A stretch of 49,350 nt of DNA from a virus (IMGVR_UViG_2671180676_000008), one strand, 5' to 3'; counted from the stretch's first letter, positions 26,739 to 37,170 are shown. The notes: generated from the letters alone by a model not told the origin. A program made the numbers and translations.

Positions 26739-28196
26739 TTAGGAGCGCCAAAAAAAACCTGAAAACAATATAATAACAGGATAAATTTCAAGGCGACCAA
26801 GAATCATAGCTATGCACATTAAGCATTTTGCAATGTCATTAAGTACTCCGAATGACGATGCAGTAGCCCCAAAACCTAATCCCATATTATTAATACATGC
26901 AGCCACTGTTGCAAATGATGTAAGAAAATCATATCCCATACCATTTAACACCAGTATAAAAAACACCGTGAAGAGAGTATAAAGAAAAAAGAAACTCCAT
27001 ACAGACCTCATTACACGATCTGTAACTATCTTCCCTCCTACATTTACACTCAACAACGCTCTGGGATGAGAAAGCTGATTTATCTCGTGTTTGCTTTGTT
27101 TGAAAAGTATAAGAAATCGAAGTGACTTAATTCCACCACAAGTTGAACCTATACATCCCCCAAAGAAACTTGACAACAGCAAAAACACTATCGTGTGCGT
27201 GGGCCAACTTGCATAATCCTGCGTAGCTAAACCATTATCAGTGAGCATGGAGCTGGCAAGAAAAAACGAATGAATAAAACTTCCATGCAAGTCATACATA
27301 CCTATATGCCAGACCTGGAAAGAGGTAACAATGATCACCCCTAAGGCTATTAACAGAAAGAAACGAAGTTCAATATCTCTGATTAAAGGTTTTATCGTTT
27401 TCCTGCTAATAACAATATACCAAAGAGTGAAGTTGAAAGCCGATAGCAGGGAAAAAGAACCAGCCACCAGCTCAACCAAATAGTTATTAAAATATCCGAT
27501 ACTCTCGCTATGAGTTGAGAAACCACCAAGCGAAACTGTGGAAATCCCGTGACAAATAGCATCAAACAAAGGCATTCCTGCAAGTCTATAACAGACAATA
27601 CAAGCAATACCTAATAAAGAATAAGTTATCCACAGTGTCCGTGACGTATCGGCCAGGCGGGGAGTGAGTTTGTCATCCTTAAATGGCCCCGGCATTTCTG
27701 ACTGATAAAGCTTTGCACCACCAATACCCAATAATGGCAATACAGCAACCGCCAGAACAATAACTCCTAAACCACCTATAAAATTTAACTGTGACCGATA
27801 GTACAAATATGCCCGAGGTAATGAACTAACATCATCAATTACAGTTGCTCCTGTTGTTGTTATTCCAGAAACCCCTTCAAACAGAGCATCAATGAACGTT
27901 AAATTAAGTTCTGAGTCAATCCATAAAGGGAATGCACTAATAACAGAAAACAAAATCCAAAACATTACAATTATAATAAACCCATCACGGGTACGTAATT
28001 GAATGCCAGATTTCTTAGTTGTATACCACGCTCCGCCACCAATGCAAAAAAATATAACGAAAGTTATAAAGAAAACAAACAGGCTTTTTTCTTTATAAAA
28101 CAATGCTACAACCATTGGTGGCAACATTGAAAGACTATAGAGCCAAACCAGGAACCCACACATATGAGTAACAACTCTTACATGAGATGTATTCAT
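26739..28196 (-). CDS. trkG: Trk-system potassium uptake protein TrkG
   Basis: Polytopic membrane protein with repeated GxGG selectivity-filter-like segments, recognised as the Rac trkG product; AT-rich gene; start taken at MNTSHV. Confidence 0.9.
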   Translation of the reverse strand: MNTSHVRVVTHMCGFLVWLYSLSMLPPMVVALFYKEKSLFVFFITFVIFFCIGGGAWYTTKKSGIQLRTRDGFIIIVMFWILFSVISAFPLWIDSELNLTFIDALFEGVSGITTTGATVIDDVSSLPRAYLYYRSQLNFIGGLGVIVLAVAVLPLLGIGGAKLYQSEMPGPFKDDKLTPRLADTSRTLWITYSLLGIACIVCYRLAGMPLFDAICHGISTVSLGGFSTHSESIGYFNNYLVELVAGSFSLLSAFNFTLWYIVISRKTIKPLIRDIELRFFLLIALGVIIVTSFQVWHIGMYDLHGSFIHSFFLASSMLTDNGLATQDYASWPTHTIVFLLLSSFFGGCIGSTCGGIKSLRFLILFKQSKHEINQLSHPRALLSVNVGGKIVTDRVMRSVWSFFFLYTLFTVFFILVLNGMGYDFLTSFATVAACINNMGLGFGATASSFGVLNDIAKCLMCIAMILGRLEIYPVIILFSGFFWRS

Positions 28197-28333
28197 ATCT
28201 AAATATTCTTTCAATTATAACCACCTTGCTGCAATATTATGATTATACTGTATAAAATTTAACTCCTCTTAGATCTTACTTCACTGTTCCTTATGAAACA
28301 ATCATCAAAATGAATCATATTGTAGTTAAGATT

Positions 28334-28798
28334 TTACTTTAAACACTGCTCGGTTATGTATTGCTGAGCACCTTCAAGTTGGGCCTGCATCATTACCAGT
28401 CGTTCCCGGAGGGTGAAATAATCCCGTTCAGCGGTGTCTGCCAGTCGGGGGGAGGCTGCATTATCCACGCCGGAGGCGGTGGTGGCTTCACGCACTGACT
28501 GACAGACTGCTTTGATGTGCAACCGACGACGACCAGCGGCAACATCATCACGCAGAGCATCATTTTCAGCTTTCGCATCAGCTAACTCCTTCGTGTATTT
28601 TGCATCGAGCGCAGCAACATCACGCTGACGCATCTGCATCTCAGTAATTGCCGCGTTCGCCAGCTTCAGTTCTCTGGCATTTTTGTCGCGCTGTTCTTTG
28701 TAGGCGATGGCGTTATCACGGTAATGATTAACACCCCATGACAGGCAGACGACGATGCAGATAACCAGAGCGGAGATAATCGCGGTTACTCTGCTCAT
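28334..28798 (-). CDS. Rz: Spanin inner-membrane subunit Rz
   Basis: 154-aa ORF recognised as lambda Rz-like from the translation. Confidence 0.9.
28393..28578 (-). CDS. Rz1: Spanin outer-membrane lipoprotein Rz1 (embedded in Rz, +1 frame)
   Basis: 61-aa ORF with lipobox LVVVGC and a proline-rich tract, fully nested in Rz. Confidence 0.85.
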
Positions 28799-29271
28799 AC
28801 CTCAATCTCTCTGACCGTTCCGCCAGCTTCTTTGAATTTTGCAATCAGACTGTCAGCCTTATGCTCGAACTGACCATAACCAGCGCCCGGCAGTGAAGCC
28901 CATATATTGCTGCAACGGTCGATAGCCTGACGGATATCACCGCGATCAATCATCGGCAAAGCGCCACGCTCTTTAATCTGCTGCAGCGCTACAGCATCCT
29001 GACTTTCTGGAGAAAAATCTTTCAGGCCAAGTTGCTTGCGGTAGGCATCCCACCAGCGTGAAAGAAGCTGGTAACGTCCAGCGGCTGTTGATTTGAGTTT
29101 CGGATTTAGCGTGACAAGTTTGCGGGGGTGATCGGAGTAATCAGTGAACAGTTCGCCACCGACAATAACATCATAACCGTGATTTCTGGTTTTCTGCCGT
29201 CCGTTATCTGTTCCTTCTGACCATGCCACCATATCAAGGAAAGCTTTACGCTGGGAATTAAGTGTCTGCAT
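28795..29271 (-). CDS. R: Endolysin (lambda R-type lytic transglycosylase)
   Basis: 158-aa ORF recognised as lambda R-like over its full length. Confidence 0.95.
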
Positions 29272-29274
29272 TAA

Positions 29275-29616
29275 TTACTCCTTATGGGCACCGAACTTGT
29301 TACCGATGACCCTCATTGCCGCACCACGAATAGCATCAACACCAATCAGCCCCACCCCACCACCAATGGCAACAGAAAGTGATTTAGGCCATCCGACATA
29401 CTCAAGCGCGGATGCAAAGGTCAGCGTCAGAGCACCACAAAGCAGAATCTCAAGCGTTTTTCGTTTCCAGCCGCCGCCACCGCCAAAATAGGCAATGCGC
29501 AAACCAGCCATAATAATTGACATAACCACTGCACCCAGCGGCGTATCTCCACGCCACCAACTTTGTAAGAGTTCCAGTAAGTCAGGCCAGGAATGAGGGG
29601 CATTGTGCATTTTCAT
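29275..29616 (-). CDS. Holin with dual-start Met-Lys-Met motif
   Basis: Three predicted TM segments and a charged C-terminus; strong GGAGGTGA SD before the MKM start; directly upstream of R. The ORF track starts at GTG 29625. Confidence 0.7.
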   Translation of the reverse strand: MKMHNAPHSWPDLLELLQSWWRGDTPLGAVVMSIIMAGLRIAYFGGGGGWKRKTLEILLCGALTLTFASALEYVGWPKSLSVAIGGGVGLIGVDAIRGAAMRVIGNKFGAHKE

Positions 29617-29962
29617 AAGCCTCACCTCCGAGAGTTCGGATGGTGCTAAGTGTAAGATTCAGGCTCTCAGGCTTGCTAACAAGAAGTCGAGGATGTTTCC
29701 GGAGCCTAACAACGAAAAAGCCCCGGGACATGCCGGGGTCAGATGGAGTGCCAGATTAAGCTTCTGGCGGTATATACTCGTGTTTGATATCGTTAAATCG
29801 CCAAAAGTAACAATTCAAACAAAGAGGATTTTTATGTCTGAAAAAACAAGCCACAAGATGAAAATAAACCTCAGCAACCCGTGGCACCAAAACCAACTCC
29901 AACACAAAGTACTACAGACTTTGCTACACGTCGTGTTTTTGTTGGAGATTCTGCCGACTCAG

Positions 29963-30532
29963 TCATTGAACATATAAAAAAACAGCCGAGATAAACATCG
30001 CCGCTACCGGAGCAAGGATGGTATACATCCTTGCTTTATCGAGACTCGTGCGGATTTTCTCATTTTCCAACAGTAACTCTCTTGCTGTATCACTCAAGTC
30101 AACAAGGCGATACCTTCGTATAAGCGGCAATAACTTATCAGGTCCTAAATATCCTGCATCAGCGAATATTTTAAAGCTCGAGGGCTCCATATCCTTATAT
30201 TTTTCATGATATAGATGATCAGGAGGGGCATTGATCAGGCCCCTAACCTTCACAGATAAACCAGTACATACCAAGTAAATGGCGCACCATGTCCATAGTA
30301 ATGTAAATGTGGTAATTCCGGCGGTGAGAAAATCGAAATTAGTTTTCTGTGTCAGCAATAAAAAAGATGAACCAATTCCAACAATCTGAATGTTCAGAAG
30401 TTTGTATCCATTCTCAACATTGGTTTTGTTAGAAAGATGAATCTCTCGTATCGTCTCTTCCCCTTGTTTTTCAAGATAATCGACGAGCTCATCATCTACT
30501 CCTAAAAAATAATCTTTAGGTAGTTCTCTCAT
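29963..30532 (-). CDS. Hypothetical membrane protein (Q-S moron)
   Basis: 189-aa AT-rich ORF with about three hydrophobic segments, between the post-Q terminator and the holin. Confidence 0.55.
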   Translation of the reverse strand: MRELPKDYFLGVDDELVDYLEKQGEETIREIHLSNKTNVENGYKLLNIQIVGIGSSFLLLTQKTNFDFLTAGITTFTLLWTWCAIYLVCTGLSVKVRGLINAPPDHLYHEKYKDMEPSSFKIFADAGYLGPDKLLPLIRRYRLVDLSDTARELLLENEKIRTSLDKARMYTILAPVAAMFISAVFLYVQ

Positions 30533-30635
30533 CTCACCTCCACATCCTGTACTGAAAACAATTTTACCAGAATGTCTCGATTCTAGGTATTCCGCCAGGA
30601 ATCGCGCTCCAGAAATGAAACATCAGGTTCGCCAG

Positions 30636-30676
30636 TACCAGAAACAACAAAACCCGCTCAATGGCGGGTTCTGGTA
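30636..30676 (-). terminator. Late-operon terminator-like compound hairpin downstream of Q
   Basis: Inner stem aacccgc/gcgggtt and outer stem taccagaa/ttctggta, with TTTGTTGTTTC on the - strand; position matches lambdoid tR-prime. Confidence 0.4.
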
Positions 30677-30753
30677 AAGTTCATGCGCTTGGTTCGCCTC
30701 GCGATACAGCTTTGCGAAGCATACCGGAATTGAAGCAGTTTATGCGTAAAAAA

Positions 30754-31296
30754 TCAAGCTATTTTTTGAGCAAATGATTCTCGCATGGGAATATATAGGG
30801 CATACTCAGCAACAGCCAACCAATTAGCAATTCGCTTTTCGCATGTGCTAAAACACCACTCAGGATGTGCATCATTTAGCAATTCAGCCATTTTGCGCTT
30901 AGTCATCCCCCGTCCTTCATACCGTTGCCGGAGGACACTAATCAATCCAGGATGCTCTGCCAGCACCTCACTTATGACTCTATCAATACATAACGCCTCT
31001 GCATCAGTACAATGCGCCAGCCAGGTCTTTTGCTTGCCATTGATCATCTCTCGCAAAAACGCTTCCAGCTCAGGTTTCTCTATTCCCGCTTTTTTCATCC
31101 TGCGCAGGGCTTCATTGACGGCTGTTTTCGTCAATTTTTTGGATGCCAGCAACTGGTTAAACATATTTCCCGTCTTACCGCCGCCAATATACGACCAGCG
31201 CCCCCACATGCGCAGTTTTCCCTGAATCCAGACACTTTCCAGCGTGGTGAGACGAAGGTGTTCCCCGCTTTTGCCTGTATTTGTTGGGTAAATCAT
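30754..31296 (-). CDS. Late antiterminator Q (phage 21/82 QuuD-like family)
   Basis: LRMWGRW segment resembles QuuD-type Q proteins; immediately upstream of the lysis genes; start taken at MIYPTN to avoid overlap. Confidence 0.6.
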   Translation of the reverse strand: MIYPTNTGKSGEHLRLTTLESVWIQGKLRMWGRWSYIGGGKTGNMFNQLLASKKLTKTAVNEALRRMKKAGIEKPELEAFLREMINGKQKTWLAHCTDAEALCIDRVISEVLAEHPGLISVLRQRYEGRGMTKRKMAELLNDAHPEWCFSTCEKRIANWLAVAEYALYIPMRESFAQKIA

Positions 31297-32988: not shown

Positions 32989-32995
32989 GGTGGTT

Positions 32996-33334
32996 ATGAC
33001 ACACAAGAGAATTCCTAAAGATTGGGTAATCAAACGCTCAACTCCGTTCTTCACAAAAGAGAACGTACCTTCAGCGTTATTAACACATCATAATACAGCA
33101 GCAGGTGTTTTTGGGCAGTTGTGCGTAATGGAAGGCACTGTAACATATTATGGTTTTACTGATGAGAATGCTACTGAACCGGAGATAAAAGTAGTCATTA
33201 ATGCTGGCGCTTTTGCAACAAGCCCACCACAATACTGGCACCGTGTTGAACTAAGCGATGATGCTCAGTTTAATATTAACTTTTGGGTCGCTCCAGACTT
33301 CTCGGGCGAAAAAGTCTATAGCACCAAAAAATAG
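32996..33334 (+). CDS. YeaR-like DUF1971 family protein
   Basis: RSTPFF..K...GV.G.L.VMEG.V.YYGF.DE...EP...I.AG.FA..PP.YWH..E...D..FNI.FWVAP pattern matches E. coli YeaR as I recall it. Confidence 0.65.
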   Translation: MTHKRIPKDWVIKRSTPFFTKENVPSALLTHHNTAAGVFGQLCVMEGTVTYYGFTDENATEPEIKVVINAGAFATSPPQYWHRVELSDDAQFNINFWVAPDFSGEKVYSTKK

Positions 33335-34096: not shown

Positions 34097-36422
<2,326 letters not shown>

Positions 36423-36540
36423 TTTAATTACCTTATATATCCAAACTCTTAATTTTCTCTTTTTTACCATAGGATTAATCCAAAATAAAGACCTTGTTGA
36501 CTAAACCCTCATGTACAAAATGCACACTTACTCAAAAGGA

Positions 36541-36566: not shown

Positions 36567-36723
36567 TTTAGTTCCTAGGGATAAGCAGAAATCTAGCACT
36601 GGATTAAAATTTAAAAATAATAATCAATAGGTTATAATGGTTTTTATTCGCATCCATGGGATCTGCTGCTGCCCGCATGATGTTGGATGCGACGGCGCTG
36701 GCACGACCTCACCCGGTGAAACG

Positions 36724-37170
36724 ATGAAACGCGAAAGGGTTGTTCTTCGGGAAGGTGCAGTTGGACTTTCAATCGATGACGTTGCAAAAGAGGCTGGCGT
36801 CAGTAAGGCAACGGTAATGTACGATCATAAGTCAAAGCAAGATTTGCTCAGCGATCTCATCAGTCGCCTTATGCCAGTAGAGGAGGAACGTGTTCAGCAA
36901 GCGATAGCGGAAAGTAATAATACCCCACATCCCGCACTCTATGGGCGAATTATTTCAGCCAGTAATGCTCTCAGTCATACTGAGAGAGCAGTAGTGCTGG
37001 CGGTCAGCGAATCGTTAACTAACGATACGAATATCAGGGACACCATGCGTTCCTGCACAAACAAAGATTTGGATGAGATAAAAAGAGGACCAAAACCAGA
37101 CGTTGCCGTCCTGGTATATTTGGCGTTATCTGGTATCTACTGCCAAGAATTTTTTGATTTTTACAAATGA
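36724..37170 (+). CDS. TetR-family-like transcriptional regulator (short)
   Basis: LSIDDVAKEAGVSKATVMYDHKSKQDLL resembles a TetR N-terminal HTH; divergent from the operon; alternative start at 36637. Confidence 0.55.
   Translation: MKRERVVLREGAVGLSIDDVAKEAGVSKATVMYDHKSKQDLLSDLISRLMPVEEERVQQAIAESNNTPHPALYGRIISASNALSHTERAVVLAVSESLTNDTNIRDTMRSCTNKDLDEIKRGPKPDVAVLVYLALSGIYCQEFFDFYK

What the first reader, a model, noticed from the sequence alone, without database searches (positions are those of the whole stretch)
29963..30532. Unknown membrane protein in the Q-to-holin moron slot
An AT-rich 189-aa ORF with about three hydrophobic segments sits between the post-Q terminator and the holin. This is the slot where Stx phages carry stx. 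It would be late-transcribed under Q antitermination and could be an exclusion or abortive-infection factor, or an accessory lysis protein.
Basis: inference. Interest (0 to 1): 0.55.

Follow-up and report, generated by a model that had tools for sequence, protein, structure and literature searches.

The report
Prophage membrane-protein cargo cassette before holin
This is a real, uncharacterised inner-membrane protein gene, almost always paired with a tiny overlapping gene on the opposite strand, that sits as swappable cargo between the late-gene switch and the lysis genes of a Rac-type E. coli prophage; it is more likely a phage-versus-phage conflict device than part of lysis.

Summary
Window 29963-30532 (-) is a 189-aa ORF with 38.9% GC (neighbours about 50%) and three hydrophobic segments. 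It lies between a post-Q terminator and a second terminator ahead of a lambda-family holin, in a complete Rac-type prophage at ttcA.

A convergent ORF of about 50 aa (PHROG 14506) overlaps the large gene's 3' end by 20-32 nt. It is intact in about 90 of 91 related loci but frameshifted here (A6 versus A7).

The large protein (PHROG 11870, RefSeq "hypothetical") matches no Pfam, NCBIfam, PADLOC or PDB entry. AlphaFold gives three long helices. The inferred topology is N-in with 3 TM helices and a cytoplasmic helical bundle.

Close relatives always sit between Q and the lysis genes, whatever the Q, holin or endolysin family. Distant relatives are single cargo genes in phage tail or head modules, or lie beside SieB, HicAB or HigBA. 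A few distant relatives weakly match PycTM and 2TM abortive-infection effector profiles, but no cyclase is ever adjacent.

The best reading is a membrane-acting exclusion or abortive-infection effector with a small partner regulator. A lysis-accessory role is disfavoured. No function was shown.

The parts
30754..31296 (-). Q-slot gene (DUF1133 family, weak Phage_antitermQ match). It is the upstream neighbour, not part of the cargo.
   Evidence: PF06576 E 2.8e-109 and PF06530 E 2.2e-6; RefSeq annotation in the near-identical genome.
30640..30673 (-). Post-Q intrinsic terminator (tR'-like): a 10-bp stem plus T-run. Homology to other DUF1133 prophages ends here, so this is the left edge of the cargo.
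   Evidence: hairpin in the centroid fold; break points at window about 30639-30695 and 30638.
29825..30637 (.). Cargo-specific segment: both cassette genes with their translation signals. E. coli 300709 has the same flanks but not this segment.
   Evidence: blastn of the window against L114: homology 31200-30851 and 30767-30638 on the left, resuming at 29824 on the right.
30561..30568 (-). Conserved -10-like element GGTAAAAT (TGGTAAAAT, extended -10 form, in the E. coli copy). Candidate own promoter of the large gene.
   Evidence: Present 30-36 nt upstream of the ATG in 10 of 13 loci. No conserved -35. Not detected by the consensus scan.
29963..30532 (-). The 189-aa gene of the finding. Predicted inner-membrane protein with 3 TM helices (about 44-62, 68-92, 168-188) and cytoplasmic helices 14-43 and 134-167.
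29834..29994 (+). Convergent small gene (PHROG 14506; 53 aa when intact). It overlaps the large gene's 3' end by 32 nt. In this window an A6 tract at 29841-29846 (A7 elsewhere) frameshifts it, so the ATG frame ends at 29977.
   Evidence: third-codon-position variation in the VGDSA block.
29783..29819 (.). Conserved dyad-symmetric element or hairpin (TTTGATATCGTTA, 12-nt conserved loop, TAACAATTCAAA) just upstream of the small gene's SD. It is also present where the cargo differs.
   Evidence: 80.8% of cells paired against at most 46% when slid, and two compensatory pairs.
29750..29768 (.). Second small hairpin, GCCAG-N9-CTGGC, between the dyad element and the terminator.
29712..29738 (-). Second intrinsic terminator (6 G-C pairs plus CTTTTT). 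It separates the cargo from the holin.
29275..29616 (-). Lambda-family holin with an MKM dual-start motif. It is the downstream neighbour and is followed by GH24 endolysin (28795-29271), Rz (28334-28798) and Rz1 (28393-28578).

Best explanation
The ORF is the larger gene of a two-gene, AT-rich cargo cassette. The cassette lies between the post-Q terminator and a holin-proximal terminator of a complete Rac-type lambdoid prophage.

Shown:
- It encodes a conserved protein of an uncharacterised family.
- Every context examined for this family is an accessory position of a prophage or another mobile or variable region, and no context includes a nucleotide cyclase.
- In Enterobacterales it is almost invariably paired with a convergent gene of about 50 aa that overlaps its 3' end.

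Inferred:
- The protein sits in the inner membrane with the N-terminus in the cytoplasm and three TM helices.
- A cytoplasmic helical bundle is built from the acidic N-terminal helix and the helix leading into TM3.
- It oligomerises and perturbs or gates the membrane, working like the 3TM (PycTM-type) or 2TM effectors of abortive-infection systems or like prophage exclusion proteins. This would protect the lysogen population against superinfecting phage.
- The small hydrophilic partner, or its antisense transcript, restrains or tunes it.
- Strong convergent late transcription after Q antitermination would shift the balance towards the membrane protein.

It is not part of the lysis machinery.
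For: Real, conserved gene.

Membrane architecture: hydropathy and K+R counts of 18 in the two cytoplasmic segments against 1 on the other side. The AlphaFold model has pLDDT 83.6 with helices 14-62, 68-92 and 134-188.

Cargo nature: low GC, terminators on both sides, and replacement by other cargo between the same flanks in E. coli 300709.

Independence from lysis genes: found with PF06530, PF03589 and DUF1133 Q proteins or none, and with holin families PF05106 and PF04971/PF16080 and several endolysins.

Distant relatives (hhalign A1 against A5: probability 99.9%, E 1.8e-33) are single genes in other cargo positions:
- a Mu-like tail/baseplate module, siphovirus tail modules and a head module;
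- next to SieB plus HicAB, or next to HigBA;
- an IS-rich Burkholderia plasmid region with Tae4 and RES genes.

Effector-like signal among 57 relatives: 4 match PADLOC PycTM PDLC02364 (best E 1.5e-8), 2 match the CBASS 2TM effector PDLC00700 (4e-5), and 1 matches Pfam PycTM (0.016). The identified hits are collinear: P0182 residues 15-137 against profile 7-116 of 160, and P0193 residues 26-165 against 10-151. PycTM/PucTM is described as a 3TM protein with a helical cytosolic region that forms a hexameric channel (bioRxiv 10.64898/2026.08.12.744502).

Partner gene: intact in about 90 of 91 loci, with conserved SD and ATG, a C-terminal motif, and synonymous-type variation.
Against: - No experiment bears on function.
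- The query itself hits nothing in Pfam, NCBIfam or PADLOC even at E<=1.
- Only a minority of relatives hit PycTM or 2TM profiles. Of the 30 tested one by one, the best was 5.5e-4, and the member scoring 1.5e-8 was not identified. Hits between TM-rich proteins can be inflated by composition.
- Fold searches return only generic long helical bundles.
- There is no cyclase and no beta-containing nucleotide-binding appendage, so any trigger is unknown.
- The own promoter is only a -10-like motif, and it is absent in Morganella and Pantoea copies. Expression in the lysogen is therefore unproven, and the gene might be expressed only late.
- A membrane-damaging protein made in the phage's own late phase needs an explanation.
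Confidence: 0.45

Rival explanations
1. Toxin-antitoxin-like addiction module. The membrane protein is a toxin. The convergent small gene, as a protein or as an antisense RNA across the toxin's 3' end, is the antitoxin. The main role is to keep the prophage or the cargo in place, not to stop phages.
For: Strict pairing and a 20-32 nt convergent overlap in about 90 of 91 loci. The layout resembles type I pairs that overlap at their 3' ends (own knowledge). Distant relatives neighbour HicAB and HigBA modules.
Against: Distant family members have no recognisable small partner. At 189 aa, with large cytoplasmic parts, the protein is unlike known small membrane toxins. The window's copy has a frameshifted small gene, yet the large gene is intact. 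This argues against an essential antitoxin, unless the frameshift is a sequencing error or the RNA is the antitoxin.
Confidence: 0.15
2. Lysis accessory. The protein is an antiholin-, holin- or timing-type factor made from the late transcript just before the holin.
For: It lies immediately upstream of the holin on the late strand, behind the post-Q terminator. It has three TM segments, as class I holins do. In Enterobacterales it is always in the Q-to-lysis slot.
Against: No holin or antiholin profile matches. The C-terminus ends in TM3 with no charged tail, and 43-aa and 75-aa cytoplasmic segments are unlike holins. The phage already has an MKM dual-start holin, an endolysin and Rz/Rz1. The gene is found with unrelated holin and endolysin families and is replaced by other cargo between the same flanks. 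Distant homologues sit in tail or head modules. A terminator separates it from the holin.
Confidence: 0.12
3. Lysogenic-conversion membrane protein. It changes host physiology (envelope stress, ion balance, colonisation) and has no role in phage conflict, like trkG further down the same prophage.
For: The same prophage carries trkG as cargo after Rz. Cargo in the Q-to-holin slot of other phages includes host-directed factors such as stx (own knowledge; PMC8065619 listed).
Against: There is no similarity to any transporter or enzyme family. The family was found only on prophages and other mobile or variable regions, often beside TA or exclusion genes. Pairing with a convergent small gene is not explained.
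Confidence: 0.15
4. Counter-defence decoy. The protein is a phage-made PycTM-like subunit lacking a nucleotide sensor. It co-assembles with and poisons host 3TM effectors.
For: Weak PycTM-profile similarity in relatives, no cyclase and no sensor domain, and phage carriage.
Against: Late-operon position, whereas counter-defence genes are usually early (own knowledge). The similarity is weak. Stand-alone copies occur on a plasmid.
Confidence: 0.04

Closest known systems
PycTM / PucTM (pJV1-SpdB3-type 3TM effectors of Pycsar/Pucsar abortive-infection systems; Pfam PF18967, PADLOC PDLC02363/02364)
   Same: Similar size (profiles of 154-160 positions against 158-199 aa here). Three TM helices with a mainly helical cytosolic part. 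Carried on mobile elements. A few family members match the PycTM profiles collinearly.
   Different: The query itself does not match. No adjacent cyclase in any context examined. The model is all-helical, without the beta-containing nucleotide-binding appendage described for EcPucTM. The partner is a 50-aa convergent gene.
Prophage membrane exclusion / abortive-infection proteins (P22 SieA and SieB, lambda RexB)
   Same: Small multi-pass inner-membrane proteins encoded by temperate phages as accessory genes. One distant relative lies next to a SieB gene. This prophage also has its own sieB.
   Different: No detectable sequence relationship: hhalign probability 0.6% to SieA and 0.4% to SieB. 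It sits in the late operon and not in the immunity or early region. RexB was not tested.
Morons in late operons (HK97 gp15 exclusion protein; lambda bor and lom; stx in the Q-to-S slot)
   Same: An extra gene with deviant composition, bracketed by terminators, inserted between conserved late genes and exchanged between otherwise similar phages.
   Different: A different protein family. A two-gene convergent unit, not one gene. HK97 gp15 was recalled from memory and not compared here.
Class I holins (lambda S family)
   Same: Three hydrophobic helices, and a position in the lysis region.
   Different: Fails the profile, size, loop-length and C-terminal-tail criteria. A bona fide lambda-family holin is the next gene.

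Membership tests
Moron (accessory cargo gene of a temperate phage) | Present in some phages, and absent or replaced in otherwise homologous ones, between the same flanking genes | tested here: met
   E. coli 300709 has the same DUF1133 and holin flanks but carries ORF6N plus two other ORFs instead. The unique segment is window 29825-30637.
Moron (accessory cargo gene of a temperate phage) | Base composition unlike the neighbours | tested here: met
   38.9% GC against 47-52% for the flanking genes.
Moron (accessory cargo gene of a temperate phage) | Own terminator and own promoter | tested here: inconclusive
   A terminator is present downstream at 29738-29721. Only a -10-like GGTAAAAT is conserved, in 10 of 13 loci, with no -35 and no transcript data.
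Holin / antiholin | Match to a holin family profile | tested here: not met
   No Pfam, NCBIfam or annotated PHROG holin hit for the query or for 43 relatives.
Holin / antiholin | Small protein with short loops and a charged cytoplasmic C-terminal tail | tested here: not met
   189 aa, with 43-aa and 75-aa soluble segments. The protein ends one residue after TM3.
Holin / antiholin | Linkage to a particular lysis cassette | tested here: not met
   Found with at least five holin or endolysin types, and in tail or head modules in distant members.
PycTM / pJV1-SpdB3-type 3TM effector | Significant match to PF18967 or the PADLOC PycTM profiles | tested here: inconclusive
   Query: none at E<=1. Relatives: 4 of 57 hit PDLC02364 (best 1.5e-8), 2 hit PDLC02363, and 1 hits PF18967 at 0.016. 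A direct profile-profile test was not possible because no PycTM sequences could be obtained.
PycTM / pJV1-SpdB3-type 3TM effector | Three TM helices plus a helical cytosolic region | tested here: met
   By prediction only: hydropathy and the AlphaFold model at pLDDT 83.6.
PycTM / pJV1-SpdB3-type 3TM effector | Encoded next to a cNMP cyclase | tested here: not met
   No cyclase in the window's prophage or in any of about 20 annotated contexts.
PycTM / pJV1-SpdB3-type 3TM effector | Cyclic-nucleotide-sensing part and hexameric channel | not testable with these tools
   The model has no beta structure. PDB 37HR is not in the libraries. No multimer prediction tool was available.
SieA / SieB superinfection-exclusion proteins | Sequence or profile similarity | tested here: not met
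   hhalign of A1 against P22 SieA gives probability 0.6%, and against P22 SieB 0.4%.
Toxin-antitoxin pair (type I-like convergent layout) | Two tightly linked genes with convergent, overlapping 3' ends | tested here: met
   20-32 nt overlap, with the pair conserved in about 90 of 91 loci.
Toxin-antitoxin pair (type I-like convergent layout) | One product toxic and neutralised by the other | not testable with these tools
   Requires expression experiments.

The most novel reading that the evidence does not exclude
The cassette is a new, self-contained two-gene anti-phage system. A stand-alone PycTM-like 3TM pore former has lost or never had the cyclase signal. It is instead gated by a convergent, 3'-overlapping 50-aa partner, so that transcriptional interference or antisense pairing couples effector release to phage late transcription. 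It is exchanged as a cassette through conserved flanks in the Q-to-holin slot of lambdoid prophages.
Probability: 0.25. Interest if true: 0.7.

Novelty: new variant of a known kind. Interest (0 to 1): 0.5.

Why it matters
About 4% of complete E. coli genomes, and many other Enterobacterales prophages, carry this pair of unannotated genes at one of the best-known cargo sites of lambdoid phages, the site that holds stx. If it is an exclusion or abortive-infection device, three things would follow. It would add a compact two-gene system to the prophage defence repertoire. It would show that PycTM-like membrane effectors can work without a nucleotide cyclase. It would give an example of control by a convergent overlapping small gene. 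The conserved flanks (post-Q terminator on one side; dyad element, hairpin and terminator on the other) also define a cargo-exchange site that could be mined for further systems.

Tried and rejected
- **Profile searches with the query.** Pfam, NCBIfam and PADLOC returned nothing at E<=1. PHROGs returned only unknown-function families.
- **PDB sequence searches.** Three family profiles returned only noise.
- **Attempts to bridge to PycTM.** Two profile searches of the 5.8-billion-protein set returned no protein carrying PF18967. Three rounds of single-protein PADLOC scans covering 30 members did not recover the member that scored 1.5e-8. The supplement of the NAR paper is not held. tblastn of P0182 against plasmids found only another family member.
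- **SieA/SieB relationship.** Rejected by hhalign.
- **tRNA and known RNA families in the slot.** None found.
- **Small partner gene beside distant family members.** None recognisable.
- **Literature.** Searches for the accession, for Q-to-holin cargo and for Rac/trkG found nothing on this gene. The vB_EcoS-666R9 record is mentioned only in a genomic survey of phages in clinical E. coli isolates; that paper was not read.
- **Late promoter pR'.** I could not place it with confidence. The 130-nt segment after Q also occurs downstream of ORF6N in strain 300709, whose Q has its own promoter-terminator unit.

Full report
**The observation**

Its GC content is 38.9%, against 47.1% for the window and 47-52% for the flanking Q-slot gene, holin, endolysin and Rz. 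Hydropathy gives three hydrophobic blocks at about 42-63, 66-103 and 166-189.

It is a real gene. It matches PHROG 11870 end to end (E 6e-108, function unknown). It has 104 homologue clusters at 42-99% identity. An alignment of 43 of these shows 22 invariant columns.

**Setting**

The window is a complete Rac-type prophage at ttcA. It is essentially identical to E. coli BR1220 and MS15047. The RefSeq annotation of BR1220 shows the following order:
- intR, xisR, recET, kilR, sieB, racR, ydaSTUV;
- a variable block;
- DUF1367, DUF1364 (YbcO) and DUF1133;
- the ORF, WP_001208722.1, annotated "hypothetical protein";
- lambda-family holin, GH24 endolysin, Rz/Rz1, trkG, then the structural genes.

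The DUF1133 protein also passes the Phage_antitermQ threshold (28 bits against a cut-off of 26, E 2.2e-6), so calling it the Q-slot gene is reasonable. A terminator-like hairpin with a T-run follows it at 30673-30648. A second one lies at 29738-29721, between the ORF and the holin. No tRNA or Rfam family lies in the slot.

The lysis set is complete without the ORF. The holin matches PF05106 (E 1.9e-27) and starts MKM, the lambda dual-start motif.

**The unit has two genes**

A small ORF is called on the opposite strand, overlapping the 3' end, in RefSeq and in several fetched loci. Translating it across loci shows a conserved protein of 45-64 aa. It has a Pro/Gln/Lys-rich N-terminal part and a C-terminal motif D-F-x-x-x-R-x-x-V-G-D/N-S-A-D/E. 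Its SD and ATG are conserved.

Variation in the VGDSA block falls on third codon positions of the small frame. This block is non-coding for the large gene, which argues for translation of the small ORF. The small protein matches PHROG 14506 (E 2.4e-31, unknown function).

Across 80 IMG/VR loci plus 11 others, a homologous intact small ORF overlapping the large gene by 20-32 nt is present in about 90 of 91. In the phage collection it occurs only in the four E. coli records that also carry the large gene.

In this window the small gene (29834..29994, +) is frameshifted. The A tract at 29841-29846 has six A where BR1220 and AR_0369 have seven. None of the 228 complete E. coli genomes carrying the region matches the window's version exactly. 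This is either a private mutation or a homopolymer sequencing error.

**Cargo boundaries**

E. coli 300709 has homologous Q and holin flanks but carries different cargo: ORF6N plus a convergent 76-aa/92-aa pair. Homology to the window stops at 30638, just after the post-Q terminator. It resumes at 29824, just before the small gene's SD. The cassette-specific DNA is therefore 29825-30637 and contains exactly the two genes.

The shared right flank holds three elements:
- a dyad-symmetric element at 29783-29819;
- a small hairpin at 29750-29768;
- the terminator at 29721-29738.

Across 18 distinct sequences the dyad is 80.8% paired, against at most 46% when the partner is slid. Two positions change on both sides: UA to CG, and AU to GC. 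It could be an RNA hairpin on either strand or an operator. I could not decide which.

Upstream of the large gene, GGTAAAAT lies 30-36 nt before the ATG in 10 of 13 loci. In the E. coli copy it reads TGGTAAAAT, an extended -10 form. This is compatible with an own promoter but does not prove one.

**The protein**

With 43 sequences, AlphaFold gives pLDDT 83.6 and three long helices (14-62, 68-92, 134-188), with short helices in between. Lys+Arg counts are 5 in the N-terminal segment, 13 in the central segment and 1 in the short TM1-TM2 loop. I therefore infer N-in, C-out topology: TM1 about 44-62, TM2 about 68-92, TM3 about 168-188. Almost all soluble mass would be cytoplasmic, forming a helical bundle that continues from TM1 and TM3.

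The conserved features are an acidic N-terminal motif (DYFL..DD.L..YLE.QGE), a small-residue TM1 (IVGIGSSF), F76/W80 in TM2, P104-x-x-L-Y, RRYRL before the last helix, and P175 in TM3.

**Homology searches**

The query matches nothing in Pfam, NCBIfam or PADLOC at E<=1. It matches nothing in PDB by sequence. Fold searches return only generic long helical bundles such as BAR domains.

An exhaustive profile search of 1.84 billion representatives finds only 104 proteins at E<=0.001. Most are full-length proteins of 150-260 aa; the rest are shorter fragments plus two longer proteins. The family is small. The distant subfamily is securely homologous to the query subfamily (hhalign probability 99.9%, E 1.8e-33).

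Scanning 57 relatives one by one gives a modest but consistent signal towards membrane effectors of abortive-infection systems:
- PADLOC PycTM PDLC02364: 4 members, best E 1.5e-8.
- PADLOC PycTM PDLC02363: 2 members.
- CBASS "Effector 2TM" PDLC00700: 2 members, best 4e-5.
- Pfam PycTM: 1 member, 0.016.
- YLATT: 1 member, 0.054.

The hits I could identify are collinear over most of the protein. A 2026 preprint describes PycTM/PucTM as pJV1-SpdB3-type 3TM proteins with a helical cytosolic region that form a hexameric channel lined by TM2. I treat this as a lead on how the protein may work, not as family membership. The query itself does not match, no cyclase is ever nearby, and the model has no beta appendage. 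P22 SieA and SieB are unrelated.

**Context across the family**

Close relatives (Morganella, Serratia, Pantoea, Citrobacter, Trabulsiella, Yersinia, and the record named Actinobacillus phage pPE4) always lie between a Q gene and the lysis genes. This holds regardless of Q family (PF06530, PF03589, DUF1133 or none detected), holin family (PF05106, PF04971/PF16080) or endolysin type. With a small local panel, about 70 of the 80 IMG/VR loci show a Q upstream or lysis genes downstream in the expected order.

Distant relatives are single genes in other cargo positions:
- between the DNA-circulation and baseplate genes of a Mu-like Pandoraea prophage;
- just upstream of, or just after, the tape-measure gene in Alcaligenes and Pigmentiphaga prophages;
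- in a phage accessory cluster with SieB and HicAB;
- beside HigBA;
- in a head module beside a HicB-like gene;
- in an IS-rich Burkholderia plasmid region with Tae4 and RES genes.

None has a cyclase or a recognisable small partner. Among one-genome-per-species contigs only 8 loci were found, 3 of them truncated. In E. coli about 225 of 5426 complete genomes carry the cassette.

**Interpretation**

Shown:
- The gene is real and conserved.
- It is cargo, with terminators on both sides.
- It is paired with a convergent small gene.
- It is independent of any particular lysis cassette.

Inferred:
- It is an inner-membrane protein with N-in, 3-TM topology.
- It forms an oligomeric membrane effector acting in phage conflict (superinfection exclusion or abortive infection).
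- The small gene's product or transcript acts as a regulator.
- Late, Q-antiterminated convergent transcription could shift the balance between the two.

I put about 0.45 on this reading. The rivals are an addiction-type toxin-antitoxin pair (0.15), a host-directed conversion protein (0.15), a lysis accessory (0.12) and a counter-defence decoy (0.04).

The lysis reading is weakest for four reasons: the lysis set is already complete, the protein lacks holin features, a terminator separates it from the holin, and distant homologues sit far from lysis genes.

**Novelty and score**

I found no publication on either gene. It is an unannotated cargo pair at a classic site, with a plausible but unproven link to 3TM effectors. 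I rate it a new variant of a known kind and of moderate interest (0.5). A specialist would not be surprised by an unknown membrane moron. However, the strict convergent pairing, the cyclase-less PycTM-like hint and the defined exchange site make it a tractable candidate system.

Noticed in passing
window 29841-29846 (+): The small convergent gene is frameshifted here by an A6 tract. BR1220 and AR_0369 have A7, and none of the 228 complete E. coli genomes with this region matches the window exactly. One IMG/VR copy (L033) has an ambiguous base (N) just after the small gene's ATG and lacks an in-frame start. This is either a sequencing error or homopolymer instability.
   Followed up: partly
window 29783-29819, with hairpin 29750-29768 and terminator 29721-29738: A conserved dyad-symmetric element with a conserved 12-nt loop and two compensatory positions lies upstream of the holin. 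It is also present in a prophage with different cargo (L114), where it precedes a different antisense gene. Whether it is an RNA hairpin or an operator is undecided.
   Followed up: partly
L114 (E. coli 300709) 932-2121: The same Q-to-holin slot holds alternative cargo: an ORF6N-domain gene, then a 76-aa (+) and 92-aa (-) pair that are again convergent and overlap by 15 nt. Convergent pairs may be a recurring layout of this slot.
   Followed up: no
window 34097-36470 (-), with a divergent TetR-family gene at 36637-37170 (+): A three-gene block is annotated in the near-identical genome as SIR2-family protein, non-canonical purine NTP pyrophosphatase and adenosine deaminase. It lies between the replication genes and DUF1367. 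In E. coli AR_0369 the same position holds the IteA/IteS anti-phage pair. This looks like a second cargo or defence hotspot, and the block may be a defence system.
   Followed up: no
window 26739-28214 (-): trkG (potassium transporter, 37.7% GC) lies directly after Rz/Rz1, as in E. coli K-12 Rac. It is another AT-rich cargo gene in the late region.
   Followed up: no
window 30638-30767 (-): The 130-nt segment that carries the Q stop codon and the post-Q terminator is itself mosaic. In strain 300709 it lies downstream of ORF6N, about 830 nt after a diverged Q that has its own promoter-like and terminator unit. The true late promoter of this prophage is therefore not securely placed.
   Followed up: partly
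window 32990-33334 (+): A DUF1971-domain gene on the opposite strand sits in the AT-rich gap between DUF1367 and the SIR2 block. It is probably further cargo.
   Followed up: no
L002 (PP818812.1, named Actinobacillus phage vB_Apl-pPE4): The gene order around its 53%-identical homologue is that of an enterobacterial lambdoid phage: ORFs matching the lengths of DUF1367, DUF1364 and DUF1133, and the same post-Q segment as the window. The host assignment in the record may deserve a check.
   Followed up: no
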